Below the pieces are notes generated by a model. The model was not told where the DNA came from. It was given only the letters and a program-made list of their open reading frames with translations, and did no database searches. 64,000 nt of DNA from NCBI GenBank assembly GCA_021299635.1, contig JAJTFA010000003.1:78079-142078 (forward strand). Reading direction: 5' to 3'. Shown in pieces: positions 43,776-57,943 of the stretch; within the stretch, counting starts at the first letter, position 1, and each line of letters starts with the position of its first letter. Source of the DNA: Sphingobacteriales bacterium (lineage in GTDB: Bacteria; Bacteroidota; Bacteroidia; UKL13-3). A program made the position numbers and the translations under genes.

Positions 43776-44462
43776 ATGCGTATTCTAATACTTTTTCTGC
43801 TTTTAGGCCATACCCTCTTTGCTCAACTTAATGAGCAGTGCACCATAAACGTTCACATTCGTTTTGGCCAATCTGATATGCAAGTTGGTGACACATGTTA
43901 CCCAATTTTTCAAACCGACAGCCTGAGGCTGGAAGCGGTGAAGTTTTATATGGCAGGTATTGAGTTATGGAAAGATAATAAAAGGGTTTGGGCAGAGCCA
44001 AACAGTTTTCATTTAATTGATGCAACAGAACCGGCATCCATGAAAATTAAACTGCCAATATCCAACGCCATACAGTATAACCAATTAAAGTTTAGCATAG
44101 GCATAGATAGTGCTACCAACACAGCAGGTGCCATGGGTGGTGATTTAGATCCAACCAAAGGAATGTACTGGACATGGCAAAGTGGGTATATTAATGTTAA
44201 AATGGAGGGAACGTATAGCCGAAGCACTGCACGAAACAAAAAGTTTCAATTTCATATTGGTGGGTATAAGTATCCATATGCTGCAGTGCAGCCTATTTCG
44301 TTGCCTGTACAATCTAACTCAGGTATACATCTGGCATTGAATTTAGAACAATTATTGGAACGCTTGTTTACAGATAATCAGTTTGAAATAATGTCTCCGT
44401 GTCAGGAAGCGGTGAGGGTGTCTCAACAGATGGCAAGCCTTTTTACACTTATGAATCCATGA
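43776..44462 (+). CDS. Secreted MbnP-like (putative copper-binding) protein, partner of the downstream di-haem peroxidase
   Basis: 228 aa with a signal peptide (MRILILFLLLGHTLFAQ). Its size, position immediately upstream of a MauG/MbnH-like di-haem CCP with a 4-nt overlap, and conserved Trp-rich stretch (GMYWTWQSGY) fit my recollection of MbnP-family proteins. This is not verified by search. Confidence 0.5.
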   Translation: MRILILFLLLGHTLFAQLNEQCTINVHIRFGQSDMQVGDTCYPIFQTDSLRLEAVKFYMAGIELWKDNKRVWAEPNSFHLIDATEPASMKIKLPISNAIQYNQLKFSIGIDSATNTAGAMGGDLDPTKGMYWTWQSGYINVKMEGTYSRSTARNKKFQFHIGGYKYPYAAVQPISLPVQSNSGIHLALNLEQLLERLFTDNQFEIMSPCQEAVRVSQQMASLFTLMNP

Positions 44463-45493
44463 AAAAGCAGATACTATTTTTACTACTCATCACGGTGCTT
44501 ATCTGCGGATTTACGGCTGAGCAAATTCAACTATTTTCTATCCCTAAAGGTTGGCCTAAGCCTGCCTATAACATGCGCAAAAATCCATTACAAGCGGCTA
44601 ACATAGCGTTGGGCCGTGTATTGTTTTATGATCCGATTTTATCGGCCAATCAAACCATATCCTGTGCAAGTTGTCATTCGGTATATACAGCCTTTACGCA
44701 TGTTGATCATTCATTGAGTCATGGAATAAACGATAGGGTAGGAAAGCGCAATGCTCCTGCGCTGATGAATCTTGCCTGGCACTCTTCGTTTATGTGGGAT
44801 GGGGCCATCAATCATCTCGATATGCAAGCCCTGGCTCCTATTACACATCCGGATGAAATGGGTGAGAACCTTGAAAGTGTCGTATCAAAATTGAAGGCAT
44901 CAGCTTTGTATCCTTCACTTTATTATAAAGCTTATGGCGACAGCCAGATAACAGGTCAGCGCACATTGCAGGCAATTTCTCAGTTTCTGCTCACCTTGGT
45001 TAGCGCGCAATCAAAATATGATAGCGTGATGCGAAAAGAGGCTATATTTACCCAACAAGAGCAAAATGGTTATCGGTTATTTAAACAGCATTGTTCATCA
45101 TGCCATACCGAACCTCTATTTACCAACTTACAATATGAAAATAATGGTTTACCTGTTGATACCTCTCTAAATGATTACGGGCGAATGCACGTTACTTTAA
45201 ATCCATCAGATTCCTTACGATTTAAGGTTCCAACCTTACGTAATATTGAATTCTCATATCCTTATATGCACGATGGGCGTTTTCAGAAGTTAGCACAGGT
45301 ACTCAATCATTATACAAATGGAATACGTCAAAGCACTACAAGCGTGGCTATACTTAAGCTTCCAATTGTACTGAACTCAAATGAGAAAGTTGATGTGATT
45401 GCTTTTTTACTTACGCTAACCGATAAGCATTTTTTATTCAACCCACAATATACTTACCCCAAACAGCTTTTATCAATCAACCAAACCCCTTAA
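44459..45493 (+). CDS. Di-haem cytochrome c peroxidase (MauG/MbnH/CCP family)
   Basis: Two CxxCH haem-binding motifs are present (CASCH and CSSCH), with a signal peptide (MKKQILFLLLITVLICGF) and CCP-like length. I take the start at the ATG at 44459, not the upstream extension in the track. Confidence 0.85.
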   Translation: MKKQILFLLLITVLICGFTAEQIQLFSIPKGWPKPAYNMRKNPLQAANIALGRVLFYDPILSANQTISCASCHSVYTAFTHVDHSLSHGINDRVGKRNAPALMNLAWHSSFMWDGAINHLDMQALAPITHPDEMGENLESVVSKLKASALYPSLYYKAYGDSQITGQRTLQAISQFLLTLVSAQSKYDSVMRKEAIFTQQEQNGYRLFKQHCSSCHTEPLFTNLQYENNGLPVDTSLNDYGRMHVTLNPSDSLRFKVPTLRNIEFSYPYMHDGRFQKLAQVLNHYTNGIRQSTTSVAILKLPIVLNSNEKVDVIAFLLTLTDKHFLFNPQYTYPKQLLSINQTP

Positions 45494-45503
45494 ACCCATT
45501 TAA

Positions 45504-46865
45504 ATGAAACAACTAATTCTAATGGCAACACTTGCATGCAATATATTTGCATTGCACGCACAAACCAATCCGGTTATTACAAAATGGCTCCTTAATACAA
45601 CAGGTATTAAAGGTAGGCACTATATTAAAAACAACTCAACGCCCATTCAGGATGCAGACTCTGCAAATGTGAAGGGAGTACTTTATTCTGCAACGGCAGC
45701 ATACATTAGAGCAAATGGTATTCCGGCATACATTACAGGGCCTTTTATGGATGGCAATCCTAATTTAGCCGGTAGTCAAAACGCCATTTTTAAATTCCCC
45801 CTGAACCCCGTGCAAAACACCGGAACCTTGTCACCAACAACCGGAGGGAATATTGGATTATTTATTAATGGAGTAGCATTATTTGACTACCGTGATGGGG
45901 CTTCGTGGCAAAATGCTACAAGTACCCTCAAGGGTGGACCATACGGAGGCACAGGTGATGGTGTTTGGAACAGAGATGCAGTTGTAGGAGAGCGCCTGGG
46001 ATTTGATTGTTCCAAAGGTCATCCTGCAGGCACTAACTATCATCACCACCAAAATCCAAGTGCGTTTAAATTAGATATTAAAGTAATATCAACCATTTGT
46101 AATCTTTATGATGCAGATGGTTTGTATGTAATTGATAGCTCTAAACATTCTCCGCTGATTGGATTTGCCTATGACGGTTTCCCTATTTACGGAGCATATG
46201 CTTATAAGAATGCAGACGGAACAGGAGGAATTGTGCGCATGAAATCTAGTTATAAGCTGCGGAGCATTACAAAGCGGAATACAAATGTAGACGGTGTAGC
46301 TGTAACTGCAGGCCCTGATGTAAGTGTAACGTATCCGTTGGGTTATTTCAGAGAAGATTATCAATACAACCCAACCTCAGCTGCTACACCCGATTATCTG
46401 GATGAACACAATGGCCGGTTTTGCGTAACACCGGAATATCCAAATGGTATCTATTGTTATTTTGCAACGGTTGATGAAAACTGGAATTCAGCTTATCCTT
46501 ATGCAGTAGGTCCAACTTTTTATGGGGTAAAGAGCGCATCTAAAGTTACCTCCATTACTGAGTCCGTTACGAAGTATGAACCGTCAACCACCAGCTTAAT
46601 GCAGGTACAATTAGAGTCTTCTTTCATCTCTGTTTTTCCTAACCCTACCAGTGATCTTATAGCGGTTCAGTTAAATGATATCAATCAAACGGACCTGCTA
46701 GTAAAGCTATATGATGCCACAGGAAAATTATTGGATCAAACTACTTTATTTCAGGGCAGCACCATTGCATACTTTGATGTGAGTAAAGCATATGCCGGAA
46801 ATTATATTATCCATATAACAGATGGAACCAATCTTGTAACCCGAAAAATTATCTTGACTAAATAA
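45504..46865 (+). CDS. YHYH-family (PF14240-like) protein carrying a T9SS C-terminal sorting domain
   Basis: 453 aa with a signal peptide. GHPAGTNYHHHQNP is the YHYH-type His cluster and DYLDEHNGRFCVTPEYPNGIYCYFAT is the second conserved YHYH-family block. The C-terminus ISVFPNPTSDLIAVQLNDINQTDLLVKLYDATGKLL...GNYIIHITDGTNLVTRKIILTK is a T9SS CTD. Confidence 0.65.
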   Translation: MKQLILMATLACNIFALHAQTNPVITKWLLNTTGIKGRHYIKNNSTPIQDADSANVKGVLYSATAAYIRANGIPAYITGPFMDGNPNLAGSQNAIFKFPLNPVQNTGTLSPTTGGNIGLFINGVALFDYRDGASWQNATSTLKGGPYGGTGDGVWNRDAVVGERLGFDCSKGHPAGTNYHHHQNPSAFKLDIKVISTICNLYDADGLYVIDSSKHSPLIGFAYDGFPIYGAYAYKNADGTGGIVRMKSSYKLRSITKRNTNVDGVAVTAGPDVSVTYPLGYFREDYQYNPTSAATPDYLDEHNGRFCVTPEYPNGIYCYFATVDENWNSAYPYAVGPTFYGVKSASKVTSITESVTKYEPSTTSLMQVQLESSFISVFPNPTSDLIAVQLNDINQTDLLVKLYDATGKLLDQTTLFQGSTIAYFDVSKAYAGNYIIHITDGTNLVTRKIILTK

Positions 46866-47009: not shown

Positions 47010-49010
47010 TTATTCTGCCTCATCACCCAAAATACCATCCGGGCTCATTATGGTGTCAACCAGATTAGTATCCGGTGCAAGCTTAATAAACTCTTTTGCT
47101 TTACCCGGAACAGGAAACAGGTGTGTTAGGTTCATGGTATCTTCCGGCATTAAAACCGTTCTGCGAACCATCAAATCAGATAAAAATTTAAACTGCCTGC
47201 CTACAAAATCTTTCAGGTTTCCTTGTTTGTCAAAACGCCACATAAACCCTTTCGGCCGTGGAATAATGGTTGCTAAAAACAAGCTCTCTCCAAGGGTTAA
47301 GTCTGAAGGTTTTTTATTAAAGTAAAAACGTGATGCCTCGCCAATACCATAAACATTGGGCCCCCATTCAATGATGTTTAAATACACCTCAAACATCCGC
47401 TCTTTGCTGGATAAGCGATTGTTTTCTAAAATGTATACCAGCAATATTTCTTCCAGTTTTCGCGATAGGGTTTTTTCTCTTGTTAAGAATACATTCTTAA
47501 CCAACTGCATGCTGATGGTGCTGGCACCGCGTGCAAATTTTCTTTTACGGATGTTTTTAATTATTGACTGACGGAAGGCTTCATCAATAAAACCTCGGTG
47601 ATAAAAGAAAGAAGGATCTTCGGTAGTAAGCACAGATTTTTTTAGGTAGGGTGAAATCTGATCAAGCGGAGTAAAATCAGGATTGGCAAGGCTAACCAGG
47701 ATGGGGCGCATGGGTCTTCCGTTTTCAATTGGCACGTACACAAAATCACTGTTAAGCTTATTTAGATTAGCTTCACCATATTGTTTAATAAACAGACCAT
47801 ACTTTTGCAGGTTGCTTTCAAAAATCAAGTCTCTTGGTTTGTTTTCATTGTAAACAAAATCCATACGGTAATCAAACGAGCCTTCTACCAGCATGCCCTG
47901 AAAATGTTTAAAGAGTCCTTCCGGTAAGGATGATATAAATTCTTGTGCCGGCATTTGCGGTATGCGAATACCAAGCCTGACAATGGTATCAGGGCTGTTT
48001 TCAAATTGTATAAACGGATAAAATGCAACTTGATTAAAACGAATAACAGAACTGCTATCTAAACCTATAAAGCTTTCACCTGCCTGCACATGATAAGCAA
48101 TCGATGCATGGTTTATCACCACATCACGTTTAGATATTTTGGGATGATTGATTAAAAATTGTGAAATGGAGGCAGAGCCTTTAACGTGCAATACATCATC
48201 TTCCAGGGTTACGGATGCCAGTGTAAAACGAATTGAATCAAAACCGGCATGCAGGTTAAATTTATCTGTAATATAGGGTATACGAATACCACCGGTATCC
48301 TGATTAAACAATTGAACATCGGCTTTCTTTTCTTTCGGGCTGGCACTACCTTCAAGCACCCAATGCTGCTTAAAATCCCTGGCATTTACCAGGATTTCAG
48401 AGTGCAATGCCTTATCTGCCAGTTGCAACTGTTGCACTTGGAACGAAACAGTTTGCGCATCCTCTCTCAGCCTCAGTTCACATGCTTCTAACAGCAAATT
48501 ACTTGGCACCTGAGATAATATTTTTGAAATCAGGTTGTAAACTGTTTTTGCATAGTTTGATTGCTTATCGGCATTGGCATCTTCGCCTGATGGTTCATCA
48601 TCGGATTTTTCAGGATGCAGAAAATAATCAATATTGCTTACAGAATCTGTTTTAACCAATTGTATAAGGCCATTTTCAACCAGTACGTCCCTTATCCTAA
48701 AATCAAGGAGTAGCGCGTATCCCAGCCTAATGCTGCTTTGCACGTTTTGAGCATACAGCAAGGTATCCATCTGGTTGGGTACCAAACAAAGGTTTTCAAT
48801 ATGAACGCCTGCCAGTCCGGTAAATGTAGCATTGCTATAGGTTAATTTTGTTTGGTAAGTAATTTGTAGTTTTACAGCAGCTTTATCAAGTACCTTGCGC
48901 AATGCATAATTGCGCAACGCAAAGAATGCCACAATAGATAAAAGCAAAAAAACACCGGCAGCAAAGGCCAGTGTTTTAAATAGTTTTTTTACGTTTAAGG
49001 CAATAGCCAT
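47010..49010 (-). CDS. Membrane-anchored peptidoglycan glycosyltransferase (GT51 transglycosylase domain) with a large N-terminal domain
   Basis: 666 aa. An N-terminal transmembrane segment precedes a C-terminal GT51 region (..TTEDPSFFYHRGFID..ASTISMQLVKN..RK..E..L..LE.. ..YLN..WG..YGI..AS..YF) of the monofunctional transglycosylase type. Confidence 0.8.
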   Translation of the reverse strand: MAIALNVKKLFKTLAFAAGVFLLLSIVAFFALRNYALRKVLDKAAVKLQITYQTKLTYSNATFTGLAGVHIENLCLVPNQMDTLLYAQNVQSSIRLGYALLLDFRIRDVLVENGLIQLVKTDSVSNIDYFLHPEKSDDEPSGEDANADKQSNYAKTVYNLISKILSQVPSNLLLEACELRLREDAQTVSFQVQQLQLADKALHSEILVNARDFKQHWVLEGSASPKEKKADVQLFNQDTGGIRIPYITDKFNLHAGFDSIRFTLASVTLEDDVLHVKGSASISQFLINHPKISKRDVVINHASIAYHVQAGESFIGLDSSSVIRFNQVAFYPFIQFENSPDTIVRLGIRIPQMPAQEFISSLPEGLFKHFQGMLVEGSFDYRMDFVYNENKPRDLIFESNLQKYGLFIKQYGEANLNKLNSDFVYVPIENGRPMRPILVSLANPDFTPLDQISPYLKKSVLTTEDPSFFYHRGFIDEAFRQSIIKNIRKRKFARGASTISMQLVKNVFLTREKTLSRKLEEILLVYILENNRLSSKERMFEVYLNIIEWGPNVYGIGEASRFYFNKKPSDLTLGESLFLATIIPRPKGFMWRFDKQGNLKDFVGRQFKFLSDLMVRRTVLMPEDTMNLTHLFPVPGKAKEFIKLAPDTNLVDTIMSPDGILGDEAE

Positions 49011-49028
49011 AAATGTTATGAAGGAAAC

Positions 49029-49595
49029 TTAAACGTGCATCAATTCAGCTTCTTTTGCTGCTGTGATGTCATCAATCTTTTTGATATAATTATCAGTAGT
49101 TTTCTGAATTTGTGCTTCAGCAGCTTTGGCTTCATCCTCTGCCAAACCTTCTTTTTGAAGTTTCTTTGCAGCCTCATTAGCATCTTTACGAATATTGCGA
49201 ATGGCTACCTTGGCATGCTCCGCCTCACCTTTCACTTTTTTCACGGTTTCTTTTCTGCGCTCTTCGGTTAAAGGTGGAAGGATAATACGCACAATATTGC
49301 CATCATTGCTGGGCTGTAGCCCAAGATTGGCAATTACAATACCTTTTTCAATAGGTTGAATCATGGCTTTTTCCCATGGCTGTATCACAATTGATTTTGC
49401 ATCAGGCGTGCTAACATTGGCTACCTGATTTAAAGGAACTAAGCTGCCGTAGTAATCTACTTTTACTGCATCAACCATACTTGGATGAGCTTTACCAGCG
49501 CGAATTTTTGCAAACTCTGCTGCAGCATGATCAATGGCTCTATCCATAGCCGATTTTAGATTATCAAATACTTCTTTTAAACGTGGGTCGCTCAT
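49029..49595 (-). CDS. frr: Ribosome recycling factor
   Basis: 188 aa. The conserved RRF sequence (..EFAKIRAGKAHPSMVD.VKVDYYG...PLNQVANVS.PD...IQPWEK...IEKGI...LGLQPSNDG.IVRI.LPPLTEERR..) is present. Confidence 0.95.
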   Translation of the reverse strand: MSDPRLKEVFDNLKSAMDRAIDHAAAEFAKIRAGKAHPSMVDAVKVDYYGSLVPLNQVANVSTPDAKSIVIQPWEKAMIQPIEKGIVIANLGLQPSNDGNIVRIILPPLTEERRKETVKKVKGEAEHAKVAIRNIRKDANEAAKKLQKEGLAEDEAKAAEAQIQKTTDNYIKKIDDITAAKEAELMHV

Positions 49596-49662
49596 AGTGA
49601 TTTACTTTTAATAAGGGATTCGAAAATAGTGAAAAAGAAAATATGAAAAGAGATGAAAAAAA

Positions 49663-50370
49663 TCAGCTTACCAGGGTACCTACTTTTTTACCCTCGCAAA
49701 CTTTCAGGAAGTTGCCTTTTTTATTCATATCAAATACCATGATGGGCATATGGTTTTCCTGACACAAGGTAATGGCCGTCAGGTCCATCACATTCAGGCC
49801 CCGCTCATATACTTCATTGAAACTAATTTTATCAAAACGCTTGGCATTTTTATCTTTTTCAGGATCGGCTGTATAAATGCCATCCACACGCGTGCCTTTA
49901 AGCACCAGGTTAGCTTCTATTTCCACTGCCCTTAAAGAGGCAGCAGTATCTGTTGTAAAGTAAGGGTTACCGGTGCCGGCACCAAAAATAACGACACGAC
50001 CTTTTTCTAAGTGGCGCATAGCTCTTCTACGAATAAATGGCTCGCATATTTGTTCCATTTTAATGGCACTAAGCAAGCGGGTTTTAATCCCATTTTTTTC
50101 TAACGCGCCTTGTAACGCCATAGCATTAATTACAGTTGCCAGCATACCCATATAATCAGCCTGTGCCCTGTCTGCAATTCCGCCAGAAACGCCTTGTATA
50201 CCTCTGAAAATATTTCCGCCCCCTATAACAACTGCTATCTGCACACCTTTATCAAGCACTTGTTTGATATCGTTTGCATATTGTTCTAAAATTTTTGGGT
50301 CAATGCCATATTGTTGATTGCCCATCAGGGATTCACCGCTGAGTTTAAGGAGTACACGTTTATACTTCAT
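49663..50370 (-). CDS. pyrH: UMP kinase
   Basis: 235 aa. The N-terminus [12 protein letters not shown] and GGGNIFRG are UMP kinase signatures. Confidence 0.95.
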
Positions 50371-50407
50371 TTGGGTTGGGTTTGATATAAATTATACAAG
50401 TATACGG

Positions 50408-50437
50408 CAAAAAAAATCCCCCAATAACGGGGGATTA
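50408..50437 (-). terminator. Intercistronic hairpin with a T-run between tsf and pyrH, a possible attenuator or partial terminator
   Basis: The minus-strand read atcccccgttattgggggat is followed by T8 (the plus-strand a8 at 50410-50417). Confidence 0.55.
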
Positions 50438-50451
50438 AAAAATTTATTTGA

Positions 50452-51285
50452 TCAGCCTAAAGCTATACGTTTGAAAGCTTTTATAACCAATCCTTTTTCA
50501 ATGCCTTCTAGCATTTGGCCTATGCTCTTGGAATTATCTTTAACGAATTCCTGATTCATTAAGGTTGATTCTTTATAGAACTTACCCAACTTACCCTGAG
50601 CAATTTTTTCAAGCATGGCTTCTGGTTTGCCTTCGGCACGAGCTTGTTCTTTGCCAATTTCTATTTCACGCGCAACAACAGTTGGGTCTACATCATCTTT
50701 GTCAACTGCAACAGGATTAAGAGCGGCTACCTGCATAGCCACATCTTTGCCCGCTACAAAATTTGCATCACTTGGTGCGCTACTTAAAGAAACCAATACA
50801 CCCAAGCGGTTTGCACCATGTATGTAAGGAACGATGTTTTCCCCGTTCATCAGTTCGTAACGCACTACGTCAATTTTTTCACCAATCTTACCAACCTGAT
50901 CTGTTATACGCTCAGCAAGTGTTGCGCCATCAAAAGGCAATGCCTTTAATGCATCAGCGTTAGCAGGTTTATTAGCCAAGGCAAGATCTGCAATGGCGTT
51001 TGCAAATTTTACGAAGTCTTCATTTTTTGCAACAAAATCGGTTTCGCAACTAAGTTGAACAATCACACCGGTTTTTCTGTCGGCTGTTGTTTTAGCAATA
51101 ACGGCACCTTCTTTTGCTTCACGGTCGGCACGAGCTGCAGAAACCTTTGCGCCTTTTTTACGAAGATTATCAATCGCGGCTTCAAAATCGCCATTGGCTT
51201 CGGTTAGGGCTTTCTTACAATCCATCATTCCGGCTCCTGTCATTTGGCGGAGCTTATTTACATCAGCTGCACTGATAGTAGTCAT
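50452..51285 (-). CDS. tsf: Elongation factor Ts
   Basis: 277 aa. The N-terminal UBA-like LRQMTGAGMMDCKKALTEANGDFEAAIDNLRKKG and the remaining EF-Ts core are present. Confidence 0.95.
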   Translation of the reverse strand: MTTISAADVNKLRQMTGAGMMDCKKALTEANGDFEAAIDNLRKKGAKVSAARADREAKEGAVIAKTTADRKTGVIVQLSCETDFVAKNEDFVKFANAIADLALANKPANADALKALPFDGATLAERITDQVGKIGEKIDVVRYELMNGENIVPYIHGANRLGVLVSLSSAPSDANFVAGKDVAMQVAALNPVAVDKDDVDPTVVAREIEIGKEQARAEGKPEAMLEKIAQGKLGKFYKESTLMNQEFVKDNSKSIGQMLEGIEKGLVIKAFKRIALG

Positions 51286-51373
51286 AGTCTATTTTGGTTA
51301 AATGTTGATTATTAAATGATTAATTAATGAAAAGTAGGTAAAAAAATCGGCACTCAGCCGATTCTTTTAATGC

Positions 51374-52114
51374 TTATGCTTCTTCTTTTTCAGCTGCAGC
51401 TTCTTTGCTGTCTGCTTCTGTTTCTTTTTCACGTTTTCGTTCAGCCAAGCCTTCTACAATTGCATCTGTAATCACACGTGATATCAGTGCTATTGATTTG
51501 GCAGCATCATCGTTTGCCGGAATCGGGTAATCCACTACAGTTGGGTCAGAATTGGTATCTACAATACCAAAAGTAGGGATGTTTAACTTATGCGCTTCGG
51601 CAACTGATATATGCTCTCGCTTAATGTCTATGATAAATAATGCAGCAGGCAGGCGGTTTAAATCGGCAATACCTCCAAGCAATCTTTTCAGCTTTACTTT
51701 CTCACGCTCTACCATCAAACGTTCTTTTTTGTTGATGTTTTCGTAAGTTCCGTCTGTAGCCATTTTCTCCAGTGCTTGGAGTTTTTTAATGGATTTGCGC
51801 ACGGTAGCAAAGTTGGTTAGCATACCACCAAGCCAACGCTCGGTTACAAAAGGCATGTTAACGCGTGCTGCTTCATTTTCAATGATTTCCTTGGCTTGTT
51901 TTTTAGTAGCCACGAAAAGCACTTTGCGTCCTGATTTCACAATGTTTTTAATGGCTGCTGCGGCCTCATCCAGCTTAACAGCTGTTTTGTTTAAATCGAT
52001 GAGGTGGATTCCGTTCTTTTCCATAAAAATGTATGGGGCCATTTTCGGATTCCATTTGCGGGTTAAGTGTCCAAAGTGAACACCCGCTTCCAATAATTCT
52101 TCCTGTTTTACCAT
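51374..52114 (-). CDS. rpsB: 30S ribosomal protein S2
   Basis: 246 aa. [24 protein letters not shown] and the rest of the S2 core are present, with an acidic C-terminal tail. Confidence 0.95.
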
Positions 52115-52152
52115 TTAGATTAAGTGTATATTGATTCGTTAAAAAATAGAGA

Positions 52153-52539
52153 TTAACGTTTAACGAACTGGAAGCGTCTGCGGGCTTTTTTCTGACCTGG
52201 TTTCTTACGCTCAACCATACGTGGGTCACGGGTAAGTAAACCAACAGCCTTCATAGCGGGCTTCAGTTCTGCGTTGTATTTTACCAATGCACGTGCAATA
52301 GCCAGTTTTACTGCATCAGACTGGCCGGTTACACCACCACCATCTACATTACAGTTAACATCAAACTGGCCGGCCGTACCGGTTACTTCAAAAGGTTTAT
52401 TTACGCTGTTTTGCAGCAATACAGTTGGAAAAAACACGTTGGCTTCTTTTCCGTTTACTGTAATTTTACCTGTTCCGGCAGTCATGTAAATGCGGGCAAC
52501 AGATGTTTTTCTTCTTCCTAATGCGTTTATCGCTTCCAT
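52153..52539 (-). CDS. rpsI: 30S ribosomal protein S9
   Basis: 128 aa with the C-terminal GQKKARRRFQFVKR and GRRKTSVARI signatures. Confidence 0.95.
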   Translation of the reverse strand: MEAINALGRRKTSVARIYMTAGTGKITVNGKEANVFFPTVLLQNSVNKPFEVTGTAGQFDVNCNVDGGGVTGQSDAVKLAIARALVKYNAELKPAMKAVGLLTRDPRMVERKKPGQKKARRRFQFVKR

Positions 52540-52542
52540 TGA

Positions 52543-52986
52543 TTAGAATTTTAAAGGTTTAGGCTGTTGTGCAGCATGTGGATGCTCAGAACCTGCATAA
52601 ACATATAGGTTTCTGAAAATTTCACGACCCAATTTATTGTTTGGCAACATGCCATCAATAGCGTGCTCCACAACATAGGTTGGTCTTCTTTCTAACAAGT
52701 TTTTGGCTGTTTCAAAGCGCTGTCCGCCCGGATAGCCTGAGTAAAACACATATTCCTTCTCCTCACGCTTATTTCCCGTAAAACGGATTTTGTCTGCATT
52801 GATGATGATGACATTATCTCCGCAATCTACATGGGGAGTAAAATCAGGCTTGTGCTTGCCTCTTAAAATGTTTGCCACTTTACTGGCAAAACGGCCTAAT
52901 GTTTGGCCTTCTGCATCAACAATAAACCACTCTTTTTTTACGGTGGCGCTGTTGGCTGAAACTGTTTTATAACTTAAAGTATCCAC
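52543..52986 (-). CDS. rplM: 50S ribosomal protein L13
   Basis: A GTG start at 52986 gives VDTLSYKTVSANSATVKKEWFIVDAEGQTLGR..., a canonical L13 N-terminus. The longer 169-aa ORF in the track adds a non-conserved 22-aa extension, which I reject. Confidence 0.9.
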   Translation of the reverse strand: MDTLSYKTVSANSATVKKEWFIVDAEGQTLGRFASKVANILRGKHKPDFTPHVDCGDNVIIINADKIRFTGNKREEKEYVFYSGYPGGQRFETAKNLLERRPTYVVEHAIDGMLPNNKLGREIFRNLYVYAGSEHPHAAQQPKPLKF

Positions 52987-53023
52987 AATAGATAATATTA
53001 ATTCGGTTTTGTTTAAGGGGTGG

Positions 53024-53056
53024 CAAAAATATGGCAAGGTTTTGTAATTCACAACT
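53024..53056 (-). promoter_or_regulatory. Putative Bacteroidota-type promoter for the rplM-rpsI-rpsB-tsf operon
   Basis: A minus-strand TATTTTTG (-7 box; plus coordinates 53024-53031) sits about 38 nt upstream of the GTG start. A TTG-containing -33-like box lies about 20 nt further upstream. Confidence 0.35.
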
Positions 53057-53144
53057 AATTGTGAAAAAAAGTAAAATCACAGGGCTTTTTATTGCCCTAA
53101 TTGATTCTCAGATGATTGCGTGAAGTTGTTTAAGCCTTGTCCGC

Positions 53145-53621
53145 TTAAAGTATTTTAACAAATCTTTTGGTTCTGTAAACGCCATCTGAATTGTATACAT
53201 ATACGATATAGCTTCCTATGGTTAAATAGCTGATATTGATATCAGAAGAAAACCAAGGTGCAGCGGTGAGCTCCTGCTCTATCCATAGGCGCCCCCAAAT
53301 ATCAAAAACAAACAGCCTGGAAAACTTTGGGGTGCTCTGCTGTATGGTAAATGTAAAGCTTGATTGGGCATAGGTAGGTAGAATGTCTATCTCATAGCCT
53401 GAGCAGGAACCATCAGTATAGGTTCGTACCCCGTTTCTCAGTTGGGCATCACACACATTTCTGTATGTTTTGTTGTCGCATCCGCAAACAGGTCTGAATT
53501 CTGTTGGGCATGGGAAGCCAGGACTAATGCTTAATGAATCAATACATCCTCCCCATTGCCCGGCAGCCTGAAATCCAGATGCACACCATATAAACAGCAA
53601 ACATGGGATGAAGATTTTCAC
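53145..53621 (-). CDS. Small T9SS-secreted protein with a Kazal-type serine protease inhibitor domain
   Basis: 158 aa with a signal peptide (KIFIPCLLFIWCASGFQAAGQ). The Kazal core CPTEFRPVCGCDNKTYRNVCDAQLRNGVRTYTDGSC carries PVCG-x-D-x-x-TY-x-N-x-C. The C-terminal ~70 aa (..LFVFDIWGRLWIEQ...ISYLTIGSYIVYVYNSDGVYRTKRFVKIL) resembles a T9SS CTD. The GTG start overlaps the pyk stop by 1 nt. Confidence 0.6.
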   Translation of the reverse strand: MKIFIPCLLFIWCASGFQAAGQWGGCIDSLSISPGFPCPTEFRPVCGCDNKTYRNVCDAQLRNGVRTYTDGSCSGYEIDILPTYAQSSFTFTIQQSTPKFSRLFVFDIWGRLWIEQELTAAPWFSSDINISYLTIGSYIVYVYNSDGVYRTKRFVKIL

Positions 53622-55057
53622 TATTTTATTTCTGTAATTTTAAGTGCATTTGTTCTTGCCCTTTCTTTAATTGGCATGCTTGCCGTATTAATAACTAGAT
53701 CACCCTTTTTAATAAATCCCATTTCAACCAATGCGTCATTCACCGTTTGTATGGAATGATCGGTGCTGTCAAATCCCTTATAATAAAATGCACGCACCCC
53801 CCAAACCAGATTGAGGGTGGAAATGAGGCGTACATTGCTTGTAAAGATAAAAATGGTTGCCCTGGGCCGGAATGACGAAATTTTATATGCAGTATAGCCG
53901 GAGAAAGTCATGCTTACAATGGCTGCAGCTTTAAGGTGGTCTGAAATGCGAACGGCTGTAAAACATATTTCATCACTTAAAAATGTAGGCGATTGTTCTG
54001 TTGGCCTTTTACCTTTAAAAAAGGGGGCATTGGTTTTTTCGGCTTCCTTAATGGTTTCGTGCATATACCTAACTGAAAGCACCGGATATGCGCCAACAGA
54101 CGTTTCTGCACTGAGCATTACCGCATCTGCACCATCCATAACTGCGTTGGCAATATCATTTAACTCAGCACGTGTAGGAGAGGGGTTTTGAATCATGCTT
54201 TCCATCATCTGGGTTGCAATAATTACGGGTTTACCTTTTTCAATGCACTTCTTCACAATCATCTTTTGAATAATGGGCACTTGTGCCATAGGCATTTCTA
54301 CGCCTAAATCGCCACGTGCTACCATCACCCCATCAGTTACCTCTAAAATTTCATCAAGATTTTTAACTGCTTCTGGTTTTTCAATTTTGGCAATTACGCG
54401 TGGTTTCCATTCGTACTGGTCAATAATCTGTTTAAGCTCAATAATGTCTTCTGCCTTGCGCACAAAAGAAAGTCCAATCCAATCCACTTTCTGTTCTATG
54501 CCAAACAACAAATCAGCTCGGTCTTTTTCAGTTAATGCCGGAATAGATAAATTGGTATGTGGCAGGTTAAAACCTTTTTTAGAAGAGAGCGCTCCGCCAA
54601 AAGTAACTTTACATTTTATTTCATCCACGCCATTGCTTGAAAGAACTTCCAGCTGCAACTTTCCGTCATCCAGCAAAATCAATTCACCGGGTTTTACATC
54701 TGCCGGCAGCGTGTTAAATTTAACCGATATTCTTTCTGCAGTTCCAATTTCGGGTTTTGTGGTTACTGTAATAATGGAATCTGTTTTAAGTGTTATTTTC
54801 CCATCTTTCATTTCTCCCACACGCAATTTTGGACCTTGCAGGTCAAGTAACTTTGCTACAAAAGTTCCCTTACTTTTATTAACGGCATTGATATTATCTA
54901 TTACCTGTTTGTGGTCTTCATAGCTGCCGTGGGAAAAATTTAGTCGGCATACATCTACTCCTTCATCTATAATGGCAGAAAGGTTTTCTATAGAACAGGT
55001 AGCCGGACCAATGGTGGCCACAATTTTTGTGCGGTTAAAAAACGGAGTTTGTTTCAT
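53621..55057 (-). CDS. pyk: Pyruvate kinase
   Basis: 478 aa. TKIVATIGPA, the K+-site/active-site motifs (..MVARGDLGVE..), and a C-terminal allosteric domain are present. Confidence 0.95.
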   Translation of the reverse strand: MKQTPFFNRTKIVATIGPATCSIENLSAIIDEGVDVCRLNFSHGSYEDHKQVIDNINAVNKSKGTFVAKLLDLQGPKLRVGEMKDGKITLKTDSIITVTTKPEIGTAERISVKFNTLPADVKPGELILLDDGKLQLEVLSSNGVDEIKCKVTFGGALSSKKGFNLPHTNLSIPALTEKDRADLLFGIEQKVDWIGLSFVRKAEDIIELKQIIDQYEWKPRVIAKIEKPEAVKNLDEILEVTDGVMVARGDLGVEMPMAQVPIIQKMIVKKCIEKGKPVIIATQMMESMIQNPSPTRAELNDIANAVMDGADAVMLSAETSVGAYPVLSVRYMHETIKEAEKTNAPFFKGKRPTEQSPTFLSDEICFTAVRISDHLKAAAIVSMTFSGYTAYKISSFRPRATIFIFTSNVRLISTLNLVWGVRAFYYKGFDSTDHSIQTVNDALVEMGFIKKGDLVINTASMPIKERARTNALKITEIK

Positions 55058-55067
55058 TGCGGCAAAA

Positions 55068-55484
55068 TTAAAAATTCAAATGCTGTCTTTGTTTTAAATG
55101 TTTGTGTTGCAATTCCGAAATAAGCTGTACTTCAGGAATTGACTGAATAAGGCGTGTAAAGGTAGTTTTTTCAAAGAACTCCAGCCCGCCTTTTATAATA
55201 ATGAAATAATCAATATTACGTAACTCATTCATGAGCAGTAAGGATTCATCTCTGTTCTGTAATAAATAAAATGAAAGATGGTTTATTTCATCCGTGTAAT
55301 AATAACGGTGATGAAATTGTTGTATCCCCTCTCCTGAATAAATAACGAGATCGTCATCAGAAGCAAACTGATAACCGAGGTGTTTGTTGATAAGCCACGA
55401 CATGCGGTGCGGTATTTCCTGCGATACAATGCCGAAAAGCAGAAAATCATCGTCATATCCGGTATCCAAAAATATTTTTTTCAC
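55068..55484 (-). CDS. Small conserved hypothetical protein, possibly related to the IPExxxVDY family that I recall lying near acpP/pyk in Bacteroidota
   Basis: 138 aa. ..LFGIVSQEIPHRMSWLINKHLGY.. is loosely like the IPExxxVDY family motif. There is no signal peptide. This is a low-confidence family assignment. Confidence 0.45.
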   Translation of the reverse strand: MKKIFLDTGYDDDFLLFGIVSQEIPHRMSWLINKHLGYQFASDDDLVIYSGEGIQQFHHRYYYTDEINHLSFYLLQNRDESLLLMNELRNIDYFIIIKGGLEFFEKTTFTRLIQSIPEVQLISELQHKHLKQRQHLNF

Positions 55485-55675
55485 TTCGCAAAGGTTGGTA
55501 TTGCGGAGCAGAAAATTGCATCAGGTAACCAAATATTTACAAGCATCTTACGCCCCCGTTGTACTAAAAGAATGACACTGTTTTTTGGTTTTATTTTCAA
55601 AAAAATGAAGCTTTTGCCTTTTTCATTAAAAAAATACTTTATTTGCACCCTCAAAACCTTTTAAACCAAACAATA

Positions 55676-55915
55676 ATGTCAGACATCGCAACAAGAGTAA
55701 AAGCTATCATTATGGATAAGCTTGGCGTAGAAGAAAGCGAAATCACCAACGAATCAAATTTTACCAATGATCTTGGTGCCGATTCGCTCGACACTGTTGA
55801 ACTTATCATGGAATTTGAAAAAGAGTTCAACATTGCCATTCCTGATGATCAGGCTGAAAAAATCGGCACGGTAGGTCAGGCTATCTCCTACATCGAGCAG
55901 AACGTAAAAAGCTAA
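55676..55915 (+). CDS. acpP: Acyl carrier protein
   Basis: The start is at [18 protein letters not shown].... The phosphopantetheine-attachment motif [17 protein letters not shown] is present, with the Ser in DSL. The upstream extension in the track is rejected. Confidence 0.95.
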
Positions 55916-55946
55916 TTTTTACCCTCATTTTTAAAAAGACAGTTCA

Positions 55947-57194
55947 ATGTCATCTCGCAGAGTAGTTGTTACAGGAATTGGTGCACTAACACCCATTGGT
56001 AACAATTTACAGGAGTATTGGAACGCATTGTCGAACGGTGTGAGCGGGGCAGGCCCTATCACCCGTTTTGACGCTTCCAAGTTTAAGACCCGTTTTGCCT
56101 GTGAATTAAAAAACTTTGACGTTAACAATTTTATCGACCGCAAAGAAGCACGCAGAATGGATCCTTATACCCATTATGCTATTATTACTTCTGATGAGGC
56201 GATAAAGGATTCAGGTCTTGATTTGGAAAAAATCAACAAAGACCGTGCAGCAGTTATATGGGCATCAGGAATTGGTGGTTTAACCAGTTTTTTTCATGAA
56301 GTGGTTGCTTTTGGCCGCGGTGACGGCACACCACGTTTCAGCCCGTTTTTTATTCCGATGATGATTGCCGATATCGCTGCAGGCCTCATTTCTATTAAAT
56401 ATGGATTCAGGGGTCCAAACTTTGCTGTTGTATCGGCCTGTGCCAGCTCAACAAATGCTATTTCAGAAGCTTTTCATTACATACGAATGGGCAAGGCAGA
56501 TTTAGCCATTACCGGTGGATCTGAAGCTTGCGTAAATGAACCTGCCATTGGCGGATTCAACTCAATGAAAGCCCTTTCAGAAAGAAATGATAGCCCTGAA
56601 ACAGCCTCAAGGCCTTACGATAAAGACCGCGATGGATTTGTGTTGGGCGAAGGCGCAGGTGCCCTCATTCTGGAAGAATACGAGCATGCGGTAGCACGCG
56701 GAGCAAAAATTTATGCAGAGATTGTAGGTTGCGGAGCATCAGGAGACGCATACCATATGACTGCCCCACACCCTGAAGGATTGGGTGCAAAAAATGTGAT
56801 GCACATGGCATTGAATGATGCCGGATTGAAACCGGAGGATGTTGATTATATCAATGTGCATGGCACATCTACACCGCTTGGCGATCCGCAGGAAATAAAA
56901 GCTATACAAAACGTATTTGGCGATCATGCCTTTCATTTAAATATCAGTTCTACCAAATCAATGACCGGCCATTTACTAGGCGGTGCAGGAGCCATTGAAT
57001 CAATTGCCTGCCTATTGGCTATTAATAAAGGAATCATTCCGCCTACCATTAATCACTTCACTGATGATCCGGAAATAGATCCTAAGCTTAATCTTACCTT
57101 TAACAAAGCGCAGCAGCGTGAAGTAAAGGTTGCATTAAGCAATACCTTTGGTTTTGGTGGCCATAATGCTTCGGTTATCTTTAAAAAAGTGTAA
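55947..57194 (+). CDS. fabF: 3-oxoacyl-[ACP] synthase II (KAS II)
   Basis: 415 aa. The active-site Cys context AVVSACASSTNAI, the His-His pair (..HGTSTPLGD.. and ..KSMTGHLLGGAG..) and overall KAS II architecture are present. Confidence 0.95.
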   Translation: MSSRRVVVTGIGALTPIGNNLQEYWNALSNGVSGAGPITRFDASKFKTRFACELKNFDVNNFIDRKEARRMDPYTHYAIITSDEAIKDSGLDLEKINKDRAAVIWASGIGGLTSFFHEVVAFGRGDGTPRFSPFFIPMMIADIAAGLISIKYGFRGPNFAVVSACASSTNAISEAFHYIRMGKADLAITGGSEACVNEPAIGGFNSMKALSERNDSPETASRPYDKDRDGFVLGEGAGALILEEYEHAVARGAKIYAEIVGCGASGDAYHMTAPHPEGLGAKNVMHMALNDAGLKPEDVDYINVHGTSTPLGDPQEIKAIQNVFGDHAFHLNISSTKSMTGHLLGGAGAIESIACLLAINKGIIPPTINHFTDDPEIDPKLNLTFNKAQQREVKVALSNTFGFGGHNASVIFKKV

Positions 57195-57205
57195 ACCTTT
57201 ATACT

Positions 57206-57943
57206 TTGGTTAAACGTTTACTCAGCAGCGTTTTCATTTTACCATTTTCTAAGCACAAGATTTTGTGCAAAAACATTTATCATATATCAGGCGTGGTGCC
57301 TACAAATGTTAAGTGTTATATCCAGGCACTCAGGCATCACTCGGTATCAAGCACCATTCATGAAAATGGTTCCAAAGACAGCAATGAGCGTTTGGAGTTT
57401 TTAGGTGATGCGGTTTTAAATACCGTAATAGCAGAATATCTGTTTAAAAAATACCCGTTTAAAAGTGAAGGTTTTTTAACCGAGATGCGCTCCAAAATAG
57501 TAAGCAGAGAAAGTTTAAACGAACTGGCATTAAAGTTAGGACTGAATCACTTGGTGGTGTATGATAGAAGAGCTCTTGGCATAAATAATAAAAACACCAT
57601 TTTCGGCAATGCGCTGGAGGCTTTTATAGGTGCCATATTTTTGGACGCAGGATTTTATTCTGCAAAAAAATTTATTACCTACCGCATGCTTGCTCACCTT
57701 GATATTGATAAGATACAAAACACTGAGAAAAATTTTAAAGGTAAACTCATTGAGTGGGCTCAGAAAAATAACCATAGCATAGCATTTGAAAGCATGGAAG
57801 AAATGAGTGGCAAGCAAAAAATTTATACGGTAAGTGTGGTTATTGATAACGACACCAAAGGCATGGCCGAGCACATTTCTAAAAAGAAAGCTGAGCAAAT
57901 GGCATCAGAAAAAGCTGCAGAGTTGCTAGGTATTGCGCTTTAA
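57206..57943 (+). CDS. rnc: Ribonuclease III
   Basis: 245 aa. The RNase III signature ERLEFLGDAVL is followed by a C-terminal dsRBD (..KGKLIEWAQKNN...YTVSVVIDND..). Confidence 0.9.
   Translation: MVKRLLSSVFILPFSKHKILCKNIYHISGVVPTNVKCYIQALRHHSVSSTIHENGSKDSNERLEFLGDAVLNTVIAEYLFKKYPFKSEGFLTEMRSKIVSRESLNELALKLGLNHLVVYDRRALGINNKNTIFGNALEAFIGAIFLDAGFYSAKKFITYRMLAHLDIDKIQNTEKNFKGKLIEWAQKNNHSIAFESMEEMSGKQKIYTVSVVIDNDTKGMAEHISKKKAEQMASEKAAELLGIAL

What the first reader, a model, noticed from the sequence alone, without database searches (positions are those of the whole stretch)
53145..53621. Kazal-type protease-inhibitor domain in a small T9SS cargo protein whose start overlaps the pyruvate kinase stop
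The cysteine spacing CPTEFRPVCGCDNKTYRNVCDAQLRNGVRTYTDGSC matches the Kazal fold signature (PVCG-x-D-x-x-TY-x-N-x-C). Kazal domains are mainly eukaryotic and uncommon in bacteria. Here one is fused to what looks like a T9SS CTD and translationally coupled by a 1-nt overlap to pyk inside a housekeeping operon. A surface-displayed protease inhibitor could protect T9SS cargo or the cell surface from self or foreign proteases.
Basis: partly seen in the sequence, partly recalled or inferred. Interest (0 to 1): 0.5.

Follow-up and report, generated by a model that had tools for sequence, protein, structure and literature searches.

The report
Small secreted Kazal protease-inhibitor protein
This is a real, conserved gene for a tiny protease-inhibitor-like (Kazal) domain that a freshwater Bacteroidota bacterium most likely exports through its type IX secretion system; such proteins are common in this phylum and already named by annotation pipelines, but I found no experimental study of them.

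Summary
ORF 53145..53621 (-) encodes 158 aa. Its GTG start shares one base with the pyk TAG stop. It scores above the Pfam cut-offs for both Kazal models. Its C-terminal 80 residues fold as a seven-strand sandwich whose best structural match is a T9SS C-terminal domain. The gene is under strong purifying selection (dN/dS 0.05-0.08).

The interpretation needs correcting on three points.
- Kazal domains are not rare in Bacteroidota. Profile searches find thousands, including standalone small proteins and proteins with up to 21 Kazal repeats ending in a T9SS CTD. NCBI already names this exact protein a 'Kazal-type serine protease inhibitor family protein'.
- The pyk coupling exists only in the four closest genomes. 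Elsewhere the gene overlaps the stop of a multi-PAS histidine kinase (28 of 80 loci). It sits just upstream of rplM in 41 of 80.
- rplM has its own conserved promoter-like block, so the gene is the last gene of the pyk unit rather than inside a ribosomal operon.

All relatives lack the classical fifth Kazal cysteine and carry an extra one (CGC), which implies a rewired disulfide.

The reactive loop (C-P-T-E-F-R-P-V-C, P1 Thr) aligns without gaps to moth GmSPI-2, a Thr-P1 subtilisin and proteinase K inhibitor. A secreted subtilisin-type inhibitor is therefore the best guess, untested. This is an ordinary new member of a known kind.

The parts
53145..53621 (-). Complete gene (158 codons plus TAA stop) for the Kazal-CTD protein, with a GTG start
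   Evidence: ORF list and sequence. dN/dS is 0.077 and 0.046 against L002 and L003. The exact protein is in NCBI as MCE2787349.1.
53619..53623 (-). TAGTG junction: the pyk TAG stop and the GTG start share one base (53621)
   Evidence: Sequence. The identical junction is present in L001-L003.
53559..53621 (-). Signal peptide, residues 1-21 (MKIFIPCLLFIWCASGFQAAG). Inferred signal peptidase I cleavage exposes the invariant Gln22.
   Evidence: The AF2 model has a helix at residues 4-15. Gln22 is invariant in 27 of 27 sequences. This fits the Bacteroidetes Q-rule (PMC5837995). No signal-peptide predictor was available.
53397..53558 (-). Kazal domain, residues 22-75. Cysteines are C26, C38, C46, C48, C57 and C73. 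The classical C5 position (Gln60) is not Cys, and the extra Cys48 lies in the motif CGCD.
53484..53510 (-). Predicted reactive-site loop C38-P-T-E-F-R-P-V-C46. By alignment, P1 is Thr40, P1' is Glu41 and P2' is Phe42.
   Evidence: Gapless profile alignment to GmSPI-2 (C-T-T-E-W-D-P-V-C) and alignment to ovomucoid. GmSPI-2 has P1 Thr7 and seven residues between the two cysteines (PMC4169406).
53148..53396 (-). T9SS type A C-terminal sorting domain, residues 76-158: a seven-strand beta-sandwich ending ...KRFVKIL
53621..55057 (-). Pyruvate kinase gene directly upstream, overlapping the Kazal gene by one base
   Evidence: ORF list. The orthologue lies upstream in L001-L004 only.
53015..53071 (-). 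57-nt non-coding block, 56 of its 57 positions identical in five genomes. It carries a Bacteroidetes-type promoter: TTG at 53054-53052, a 20-nt spacer, then TATTTTTG at 53031-53024. This is most likely the rplM operon's own promoter and marks the 3' boundary of the pyk-Kazal unit.
   Evidence: Alignment A4. Reading it as a promoter rests on the known Bacteroidetes TTTG/TAnnTTTG consensus (my own knowledge) and is an inference.
53080..53099 (-). Weak terminator-like hairpin after the Kazal stop. It is not conserved in relatives.
   Evidence: Consensus scan found 2 sites against 3.5 expected by chance. The stem is broken in L001-L004.

Best explanation
The gene encodes a pre-protein with three parts: a Sec signal peptide (residues 1-21), one non-classical Kazal domain (residues 22-75) and a type A T9SS C-terminal sorting domain (residues 76-158).

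Inferred pathway. The protein crosses the inner membrane by Sec. Signal peptidase I exposes Gln22, which is probably cyclised to pyroglutamate. Three disulfides form in the periplasm: C38-C57 and C46-C73 as in all Kazal domains, and C26-C48 by elimination. The CTD then targets the folded protein to the T9SS translocon and is cleaved off near the conserved Ser-Gly after Cys73. This leaves a passenger of about 53 residues that is either released or attached to the cell surface.

Inferred function. The passenger acts as a standard-mechanism (substrate-like, tight-binding) inhibitor of serine endopeptidases through the exposed loop C-P-T40-E-F-R-P-V-C. Subtilisin-family (S8) enzymes are the most likely targets, because the closest solved relative, GmSPI-2, has the same loop length and the same P1 Thr and P1' Glu, and inhibits subtilisin and proteinase K.

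Expression here is coupled to pyk by a TAGTG stop/start overlap.

Shown: the gene, its domains, its fold, its conservation and its synteny. Inferred: export route, processing, disulfide pairing, inhibitory activity and target class.
For: - Kazal HMMs score above cut-off.
- PDB sequence hits are all Kazal inhibitors.
- The profile alignment to GmSPI-2 is gapless, E 1.7e-11.
- The CTD fold matches the mirolase and NucA CTDs. Its seven strands fit the 3+4 beta-sandwich described for CTDs (PMC11285876).
- Four other proteins in this window carry Por_Secre_tail above the cut-off, so the genome uses T9SS cargo signals.
- Gln22 is invariant, which fits the Q-rule (PMC5837995).
- Purifying selection is strong.
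- All six Cys are invariant in 80 loci. The extra Cys co-occurs with C1 across 1010 Kazal domains (706/166/30/108, odds ratio about 15).
- P2' is always Phe or Tyr and Pro-Val precede C3, while P1 and P3' vary. This is the pattern expected of Kazal contact residues.
Against: - There is no biochemical evidence for any bacterial member. Searches of the held literature found none.
- The CTD HMM scores for this sequence are below the curated cut-offs.
- Most relatives have an eight-residue loop, commonly C-P-D-P-[ST]-[YF]-x-P-V-C. Aligned from C3 this puts Pro or Asp/Asn near P1, which is poor for a canonical inhibitor. Part of the family may not inhibit S1 or S8 enzymes.
- No protease gene is a conserved neighbour, and no secreted serine protease is encoded in the window.
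- Non-inhibitory Kazal-like domains (follistatin, agrin) also appear among the structural and sequence matches.
Confidence: 0.6

Rival explanations
1. It is a T9SS-exported Kazal-like module that does not inhibit proteases. Instead it serves as a small disulfide-rich binding, adhesion or decoy domain on the cell surface, as follistatin- or agrin-type Kazal-like domains do in animals.
For: - Most family members have an eight-residue loop with conserved Pro-Asp-Pro, which is unlike good P1 residues.
- No conserved protease neighbour was found.
- Relatives with many Kazal repeats also carry PKD and Ig domains typical of adhesins.
Against: - The window protein keeps the canonical seven-residue loop with Thr-Glu, as in an active inhibitor.
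- The best matches are true inhibitors: GmSPI-2, infestin and ovomucoid.
- Standalone bacterial relatives have ovomucoid-like loops, C-T-M-E-Y-x-P-V-C with P1 Met.
Confidence: 0.25
2. The protein's main role is tied to its conserved neighbours. It could be an extracellular partner or output of the multi-PAS histidine kinase that it is translationally coupled to in most relatives, or a gene whose position affects expression of the rplM operon. Protease inhibition would then be incidental.
For: - An orthologous PAS-HisKA-HATPase_c kinase lies directly upstream in 28 of 80 loci, with ATGA or TAATG overlaps in 17.
- rplM lies directly downstream in 41 of 80 loci.
- The two adjacencies occur partly independently. 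L043 and L047 have the kinase but no rplM. L005-L012 have rplM but no kinase.
Against: - In the window's own clade the kinase is replaced by pyk with no change to the protein, and no kinase homologue is in the window.
- In other clades neither neighbour is present (L050-L080).
- rplM has its own invariant promoter-like block.
- Selection acts on the protein sequence and its secretion signals.
- The synteny can be explained by vertical inheritance in compact genomes.
Confidence: 0.08
3. The protein is a periplasmic or outer-membrane inhibitor that is not a T9SS substrate. On this view the C-terminal beta-sandwich is a generic Ig-like domain rather than a sorting signal.
For: - TIGR04183 and PF18962 scores for this sequence are below the curated cut-offs.
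Against: - The domain sits at the extreme C-terminus and ends in a K-x-F-V-K-type strand.
- 12 of 27 relatives hit PF18962, and multi-Kazal relatives pass the cut-off.
- The family CTD profile cross-hits the C-termini of validated CTD proteins in the same window.
Confidence: 0.07

Closest known systems
GmSPI-2, Galleria mellonella silk protease inhibitor 2 (PDB 4HGU / 2M5X)
   Different: GmSPI-2 is an insect silk protein of 36-40 residues with four Cys. The window domain has an N-terminal extension carrying C26 plus an extra Cys48 (CGC where GmSPI-2 has CGK), which implies a third, non-classical disulfide. It is also fused to a T9SS CTD.
Ovomucoid third domains (OMTKY3, OMSVP3, quail OM3), the classical Kazal inhibitors of MEROPS family I1
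   Same: They are the best PDB sequence hits (1e-5). Loop chemistry is similar: quail C-P-K-D-Y-R-P-V-C and turkey C-T-L-E-Y-R-P-L-C against C-P-T-E-F-R-P-V-C here. They share the beta-hairpin, helix and strand fold.
   Different: The classical 1-5, 2-4, 3-6 disulfide pattern is not kept. C5 is replaced (Gln60) in all 80 relatives.
Standalone small Kazal proteins of Bacteroidota (Hymenobacter, Pontibacter, Fulvivirga and Phaeodactylibacter among the named records), called 'Kazal-type serine protease inhibitor' by NCBI
   Same: They have the same six-Cys C-x11-C-x7-C-G-C-x8-C-x14-C subtype in 119 of the best 120 hits. They share the same phylum where a source name is given, and are secreted.
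   Different: They are 70-110 aa with no CTD, and many have a lipobox-like signal. Their loops typically have P2 Thr and P1 Met (C-T-M-E-Y-x-P-V-C).
Multi-Kazal T9SS cargo proteins (for example P0152, P0161, P0151, P0149)
   Same: They have the same Kazal subtype followed by Por_Secre_tail above the Pfam cut-off. The architecture is the same in principle.
   Different: They carry 3-21 Kazal repeats, often with PKD or Ig domains, in 400-2500 aa. The window protein is the minimal form, with one Kazal domain and the CTD.
Secreted microbial inhibitors aimed at foreign proteases: Phytophthora EPI1/EPI10 (Kazal-like, target the tomato subtilase P69B) and bacterial ecotin
   Same: They share the functional logic proposed here. 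An exported inhibitor neutralises exogenous serine proteases rather than the cell's own (PMC9904509).
   Different: EPI1 and EPI10 are from an oomycete. Ecotin is an unrelated fold (family I11) and is periplasmic. Neither uses the T9SS.

Membership tests
Kazal-type inhibitor domain (Pfam PF00050 / PF07648; MEROPS I1) | Score above the curated HMM threshold | tested here: met
   Kazal_2 scores 29.3 against 22.8 and Kazal_1 scores 27.7 against 21. 27 of 27 relatives hit Kazal_1.
Kazal-type inhibitor domain (Pfam PF00050 / PF07648; MEROPS I1) | Kazal fold: a short beta-hairpin, one alpha-helix and a C-terminal strand | tested here: met
   [not shown]
Kazal-type inhibitor domain (Pfam PF00050 / PF07648; MEROPS I1) | Classical six-cysteine pattern with 1-5, 2-4 and 3-6 disulfides | tested here: not met
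   C5 (C4+3) is Gln60 and is never Cys in 80 relatives. An extra Cys follows C3-Gly. Non-classical Kazals without the 1-5 bridge, such as GmSPI-2, are accepted members (PMC4169406). This therefore excludes 'classical Kazal' but not the family.
Kazal-type inhibitor domain (Pfam PF00050 / PF07648; MEROPS I1) | Canonical reactive-site loop: seven residues between C2 and C3, with P1 at C2+2 | tested here: met
   The loop is C38-PTEFRPV-C46 and aligns with GmSPI-2 and ovomucoid. Across the 80 loci the feature is mixed: 59 have eight residues, 20 have seven and one has twelve.
Kazal-type inhibitor domain (Pfam PF00050 / PF07648; MEROPS I1) | Tight-binding inhibition of a serine endopeptidase | not testable with these tools
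   This needs recombinant protein and enzyme assays.
T9SS type A CTD cargo (TIGR04183 / PF18962) | CTD HMM score above the curated threshold | tested here: not met
   TIGR04183 scores 20.7 against 23 and PF18962 scores 16.1 against 27 for this sequence. 12 of 27 relatives match at E<=0.01, best 1.4e-6. Multi-Kazal relatives pass the cut-off.
T9SS type A CTD cargo (TIGR04183 / PF18962) | Seven-strand Ig-like beta-sandwich at the extreme C-terminus | tested here: met
   [not shown]
T9SS type A CTD cargo (TIGR04183 / PF18962) | N-terminal Sec signal peptide | tested here: inconclusive
   Inspection shows a Lys2 n-region, a hydrophobic helix at residues 4-15 and an invariant Gln at +1. No dedicated predictor was available.
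T9SS type A CTD cargo (TIGR04183 / PF18962) | The host genome uses a T9SS | tested here: inconclusive
   No core T9SS gene was found among the annotated ORFs of the 64-kb window. Four other proteins there carry Por_Secre_tail above the cut-off, so a T9SS is strongly implied.
T9SS type A CTD cargo (TIGR04183 / PF18962) | T9SS-dependent export with removal of the CTD | not testable with these tools
   This needs secretion assays in wild-type and T9SS-mutant backgrounds.
Conserved pyk-Kazal operon | Stop/start overlap with pyk, and conservation of that linkage in orthologous loci | tested here: inconclusive
   The overlap is present here and in L001-L003, and L004 has a 3-nt gap. pyk is absent upstream in the other 76 loci.

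The most novel reading that the evidence does not exclude
The six-cysteine 'C1 ... C3-Gly-Cys' form seen here and in hundreds of Kazal domains in my searches, mostly from Bacteroidota where a source is named, may be an undescribed third non-classical Kazal disulfide topology, with C1 bonded to the residue two after C3 instead of to C5. T9SS export of one to more than twenty such domains would then form an unstudied extracellular anti-protease shield of freshwater Bacteroidota. Its ancestral expression would be wired to a cytoplasmic multi-PAS histidine kinase by translational coupling.
Probability: 0.2. Interest if true: 0.55.

Novelty: new member of a known kind. Interest (0 to 1): 0.3.

Why it matters
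If the inhibitor reading is right, this would be among the smallest T9SS passengers I am aware of, at about 53 residues. That makes it a convenient minimal cargo for studying T9SS recognition and CTD cleavage. It is also an easy entry point to a large class of Bacteroidota Kazal proteins, single-domain and multi-domain, for which my searches of the held literature found no experimental study. Their targets could be the cell's own secreted subtilases, competitors' proteases or grazers' digestive enzymes. The answer would bear on how abundant freshwater Bacteroidota survive in protease-rich surroundings. As a genome observation it is ordinary: the domain is already recognised by NCBI's annotation pipeline and the architecture is common.

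Tried and rejected
- **Known RNA elements.** An Rfam scan of 49000-57500 at E<=1 found nothing relevant.
- **Intrinsic terminator after the gene.** The only hairpin (53099..53080) is a weak consensus match: 2 sites found against 3.5 expected from shuffles. Its stem is not conserved in L001-L004. My own pattern scan found terminator-like hairpins downstream in only 7 of 79 loci, but that script did not recover the window-type hairpin in the close relatives, so it is a weak negative.
- **Spurious ORF.** Rejected on dN/dS and conservation.
- **Kinase elsewhere in the window.** No homologue of the upstream histidine kinase was found by tblastn at 1e-3.
- **Partner protease.** None is adjacent here. 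Elsewhere I saw only an M10 metallopeptidase with a CTD two genes downstream in one distant locus (L083) and two CTD proteins of unknown type in L084. No secreted serine protease is among the window's ORFs of 180 aa or more.
- **Literature.** Six searches for bacterial or T9SS Kazal proteins found nothing on point. The Kantyka/Rawlings/Potempa 2010 review of prokaryotic inhibitors is not held.
- **Whole-protein fold search.** It was dominated by the beta-sandwich and showed nothing for the Kazal part, so I modelled the domain on its own.
- **Disulfide geometry.** It could not be measured because model coordinates are not exposed.

Full report
**Observation.**
Read on the minus strand, 53623..53619 is TAGTG. 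The pyruvate kinase TAG stop and the GTG start therefore share base 53621.

GTG is the credible start. It gives a Lys-containing n-region and a hydrophobic core before an invariant Gln. Relatives start with ATG at the equivalent position. The same TAGTG junction is kept in three other species-level genomes, and L004 has a 3-nt gap.

**Kazal domain.**
Pfam Kazal_2 (29.3 bits, cut-off 22.8) and Kazal_1 (27.7 bits, cut-off 21) both pass. Against PDB sequences, the hits at E<=0.1 are all Kazal inhibitors, led by ovomucoid third domains (1e-5) and leech tryptase inhibitor.

**Cysteine pattern.**
It is not classical. Across 27 database relatives and 80 genome loci the spacing is C-x11-C-x7/8-C-G-C-x8-C-x14-17-C. 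The few exceptions are one x12 loop and x12 or x15 before C2 in six loci. The classical C5, three residues after C4, is never a cysteine. An extra cysteine always follows C3-Gly.
- C2-C4 and C3-C6 are the universal Kazal bridges, so C26-C48 is the third pair by elimination.
- Among 1010 Kazal domains in the proteins I retrieved, the extra Cys and an N-terminal C1 co-occur (706/166/30/108, odds ratio about 15).
- I could not measure the distance in the model because coordinates are not exposed. The pairing is inferred.

**C-terminal domain.**
On this sequence alone the T9SS models fall short: TIGR04183 scores 20.7 against 23, and PF18962 scores 16.1 against 27. The family-level and structural evidence is good.
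- 12 of 27 relatives hit PF18962, best 1.4e-6.
- The full-length model (pLDDT 89.2) has seven strands between residues 76 and 156.
- This matches the 3+4 sandwich described for CTDs (PMC11285876).
- A profile of the family's CTD also hits the extreme C-termini of three large proteins in this window. Pfam confirms Por_Secre_tail above cut-off in those three and in a fourth, an endonuclease I protein. The genome clearly uses this export signal.
- Gln22 is invariant, as expected from the Bacteroidetes Q-rule for signal peptidase I substrates (PMC5837995).

**Is it a real gene?**
Yes. dN/dS against L002 and L003 is 0.077 and 0.046, close to the values for the neighbouring housekeeping genes. A pattern scan of one genome per species found 195 stretches encoding a relative. 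The best 80 all cover both the Kazal domain and the CTD. Nearly all are freshwater metagenome-assembled Bacteroidota, plus the complete genome of Bacteroidetes bacterium UKL13-3.

**How common is this?**
- A domain-only profile found 5477 protein clusters. The best 120 are 67-112 aa standalone Kazal proteins. Those with a source name are from Bacteroidota (Hymenobacter, Pontibacter, Fulvivirga, Phaeodactylibacter), apart from one Planctomycetota record.
- 119 of those 120 have the same CGC subtype, and several are named 'Kazal-type serine protease inhibitor' by NCBI.
- A full-length profile against 1.84 billion representatives found 8590 hits at E<=1e-3, 2297 at E<=1e-10 and 281 at E<=1e-30. 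The top ones carry up to 21 Kazal repeats. Six of the eight I checked carry several Kazal repeats plus Por_Secre_tail above cut-off, and a seventh (P0147) has 14 Kazal stretches without a detectable CTD.
- The exact window protein is in NCBI (MCE2787349.1 and others, 44 contigs) as 'Kazal-type serine protease inhibitor family protein'.
- I found no experimental paper on any bacterial Kazal protein or Kazal T9SS cargo in the held library.

**Genomic context.**
- pyk lies upstream only in L001-L004, the closest genomes.
- In 28 of 80 loci the upstream gene is an orthologous cytoplasmic sensor kinase with several PAS domains, HisKA and HATPase_c. Its stop overlaps the Kazal start in 17 of them: ATGA in 11 and TAATG in 6.
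- In 41 of 80 loci rplM-rpsI-rpsB-tsf follows on the same strand, usually with pyrH after it, and usually 45-200 nt downstream.
- The two adjacencies occur partly independently.
- In the window, the spacer between the Kazal stop and rplM contains a 57-nt block (53015-53071) in which 56 positions are identical in five genomes, even where synonymous sites are saturated. It carries TTG, a 20-nt spacer and TATTTTTG, which fits the Bacteroidetes promoter consensus known to me. rplM then probably starts at GTG 52986, giving 147 aa as in L081.

So the gene is the last gene of the unit formed by the 138-aa ORF (55068..55484), pyk and the Kazal gene. It is not embedded in the ribosomal operon. Tight coupling to whatever lies upstream is a recurrent habit of this gene, and I have no explanation for the kinase link.

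**Function.**
- The window's loop C38-P-T-E-F-R-P-V-C46 has the canonical seven residues. It aligns without gaps to GmSPI-2 (C-T-T-E-W-D-P-V-C) and to ovomucoids (C-T-L-E-Y-R-P-L-C). That makes Thr40 the P1 residue and Glu41 the P1' residue.
- I therefore favour a standard-mechanism inhibitor aimed at subtilisin-family proteases, exported by the T9SS and then released or surface-attached.
- Against this, 59 of the 80 loci have an eight-residue loop, commonly P-D-P-[ST]-[YF], which would put Pro or Asp/Asn near P1.
- No protease is a conserved neighbour, and non-inhibitory Kazal-like domains exist.
- My confidence that this is a T9SS-exported Kazal domain is about 0.9. My confidence that it inhibits a serine protease is about 0.55-0.6.

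**Verdict.**
This is the minimal, single-domain member of a large Bacteroidota family that annotation pipelines already recognise but that appears unstudied experimentally. The non-classical cysteine arrangement and the kinase coupling are the only features that go beyond the ordinary.

Noticed in passing
window 53015-53071 (- strand); rplM start near 52986: A 57-nt non-coding block has 56 of 57 positions identical in the window and L001-L004, although synonymous sites are saturated against L004. It holds TTG, a 20-nt spacer and TATTTTTG, which fits a Bacteroidetes-type promoter. rplM most likely starts at GTG 52986 (147 aa), not at 53052 as the mechanical ORF list gives.
   Followed up: partly
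L013, L019-L029, L031, L037, L038, L041, L045-L049 and others (gene upstream of the match at about 5001): An orthologous multi-PAS histidine kinase (up to 1632 aa) ends with ATGA or TAATG overlapping the start of the Kazal-CTD gene in 17 of 28 loci. No response regulator was seen next to it. The reason for this coupling is unexplained.
   Followed up: partly
window 17216-30013 (+): A giant 4265-aa protein has TIG/IPT domains, a BNR-associated N-terminal domain and a Por_Secre_tail CTD above cut-off. It is a very large T9SS cargo, probably an adhesin.
   Followed up: no
window 43776-46865 (+): MbnP (43776-44462) and a di-haem cytochrome c peroxidase of the MbnH type (44399-45493) are followed by a YHYH-domain protein with a T9SS CTD (45504-46865). 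This looks like a copper-related cluster whose third member is exported by the T9SS.
   Followed up: no
[not shown]
   Followed up: no
window 55068-55484 (-): A 138-aa ORF directly upstream of pyk has no Pfam match at E<=1e-3. It is conserved in L001-L004 but evolves about as fast as the Kazal gene (64-96% identity).
   Followed up: no
L050, L052, L053, L056, L057, L059, L060 (CTD region of the match): Seven of the loci in this clade carry an extra cysteine pair in a CTD loop (for example PSFCDGVFCK). This suggests an added disulfide inside the sorting domain.
   Followed up: no
L008, L011, L021, L032, L043, L050, L052 (record titles): Several MAG records holding this Bacteroidota-type gene are titled as unrelated taxa (Comamonas, Bifidobacteriaceae/Bifidobacterium, Vulcanococcus, Methylacidiphilales), and L008, L011 and L021 also carry the Bacteroidota-type rplM synteny. 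The taxon labels of these records look unreliable.
   Followed up: no
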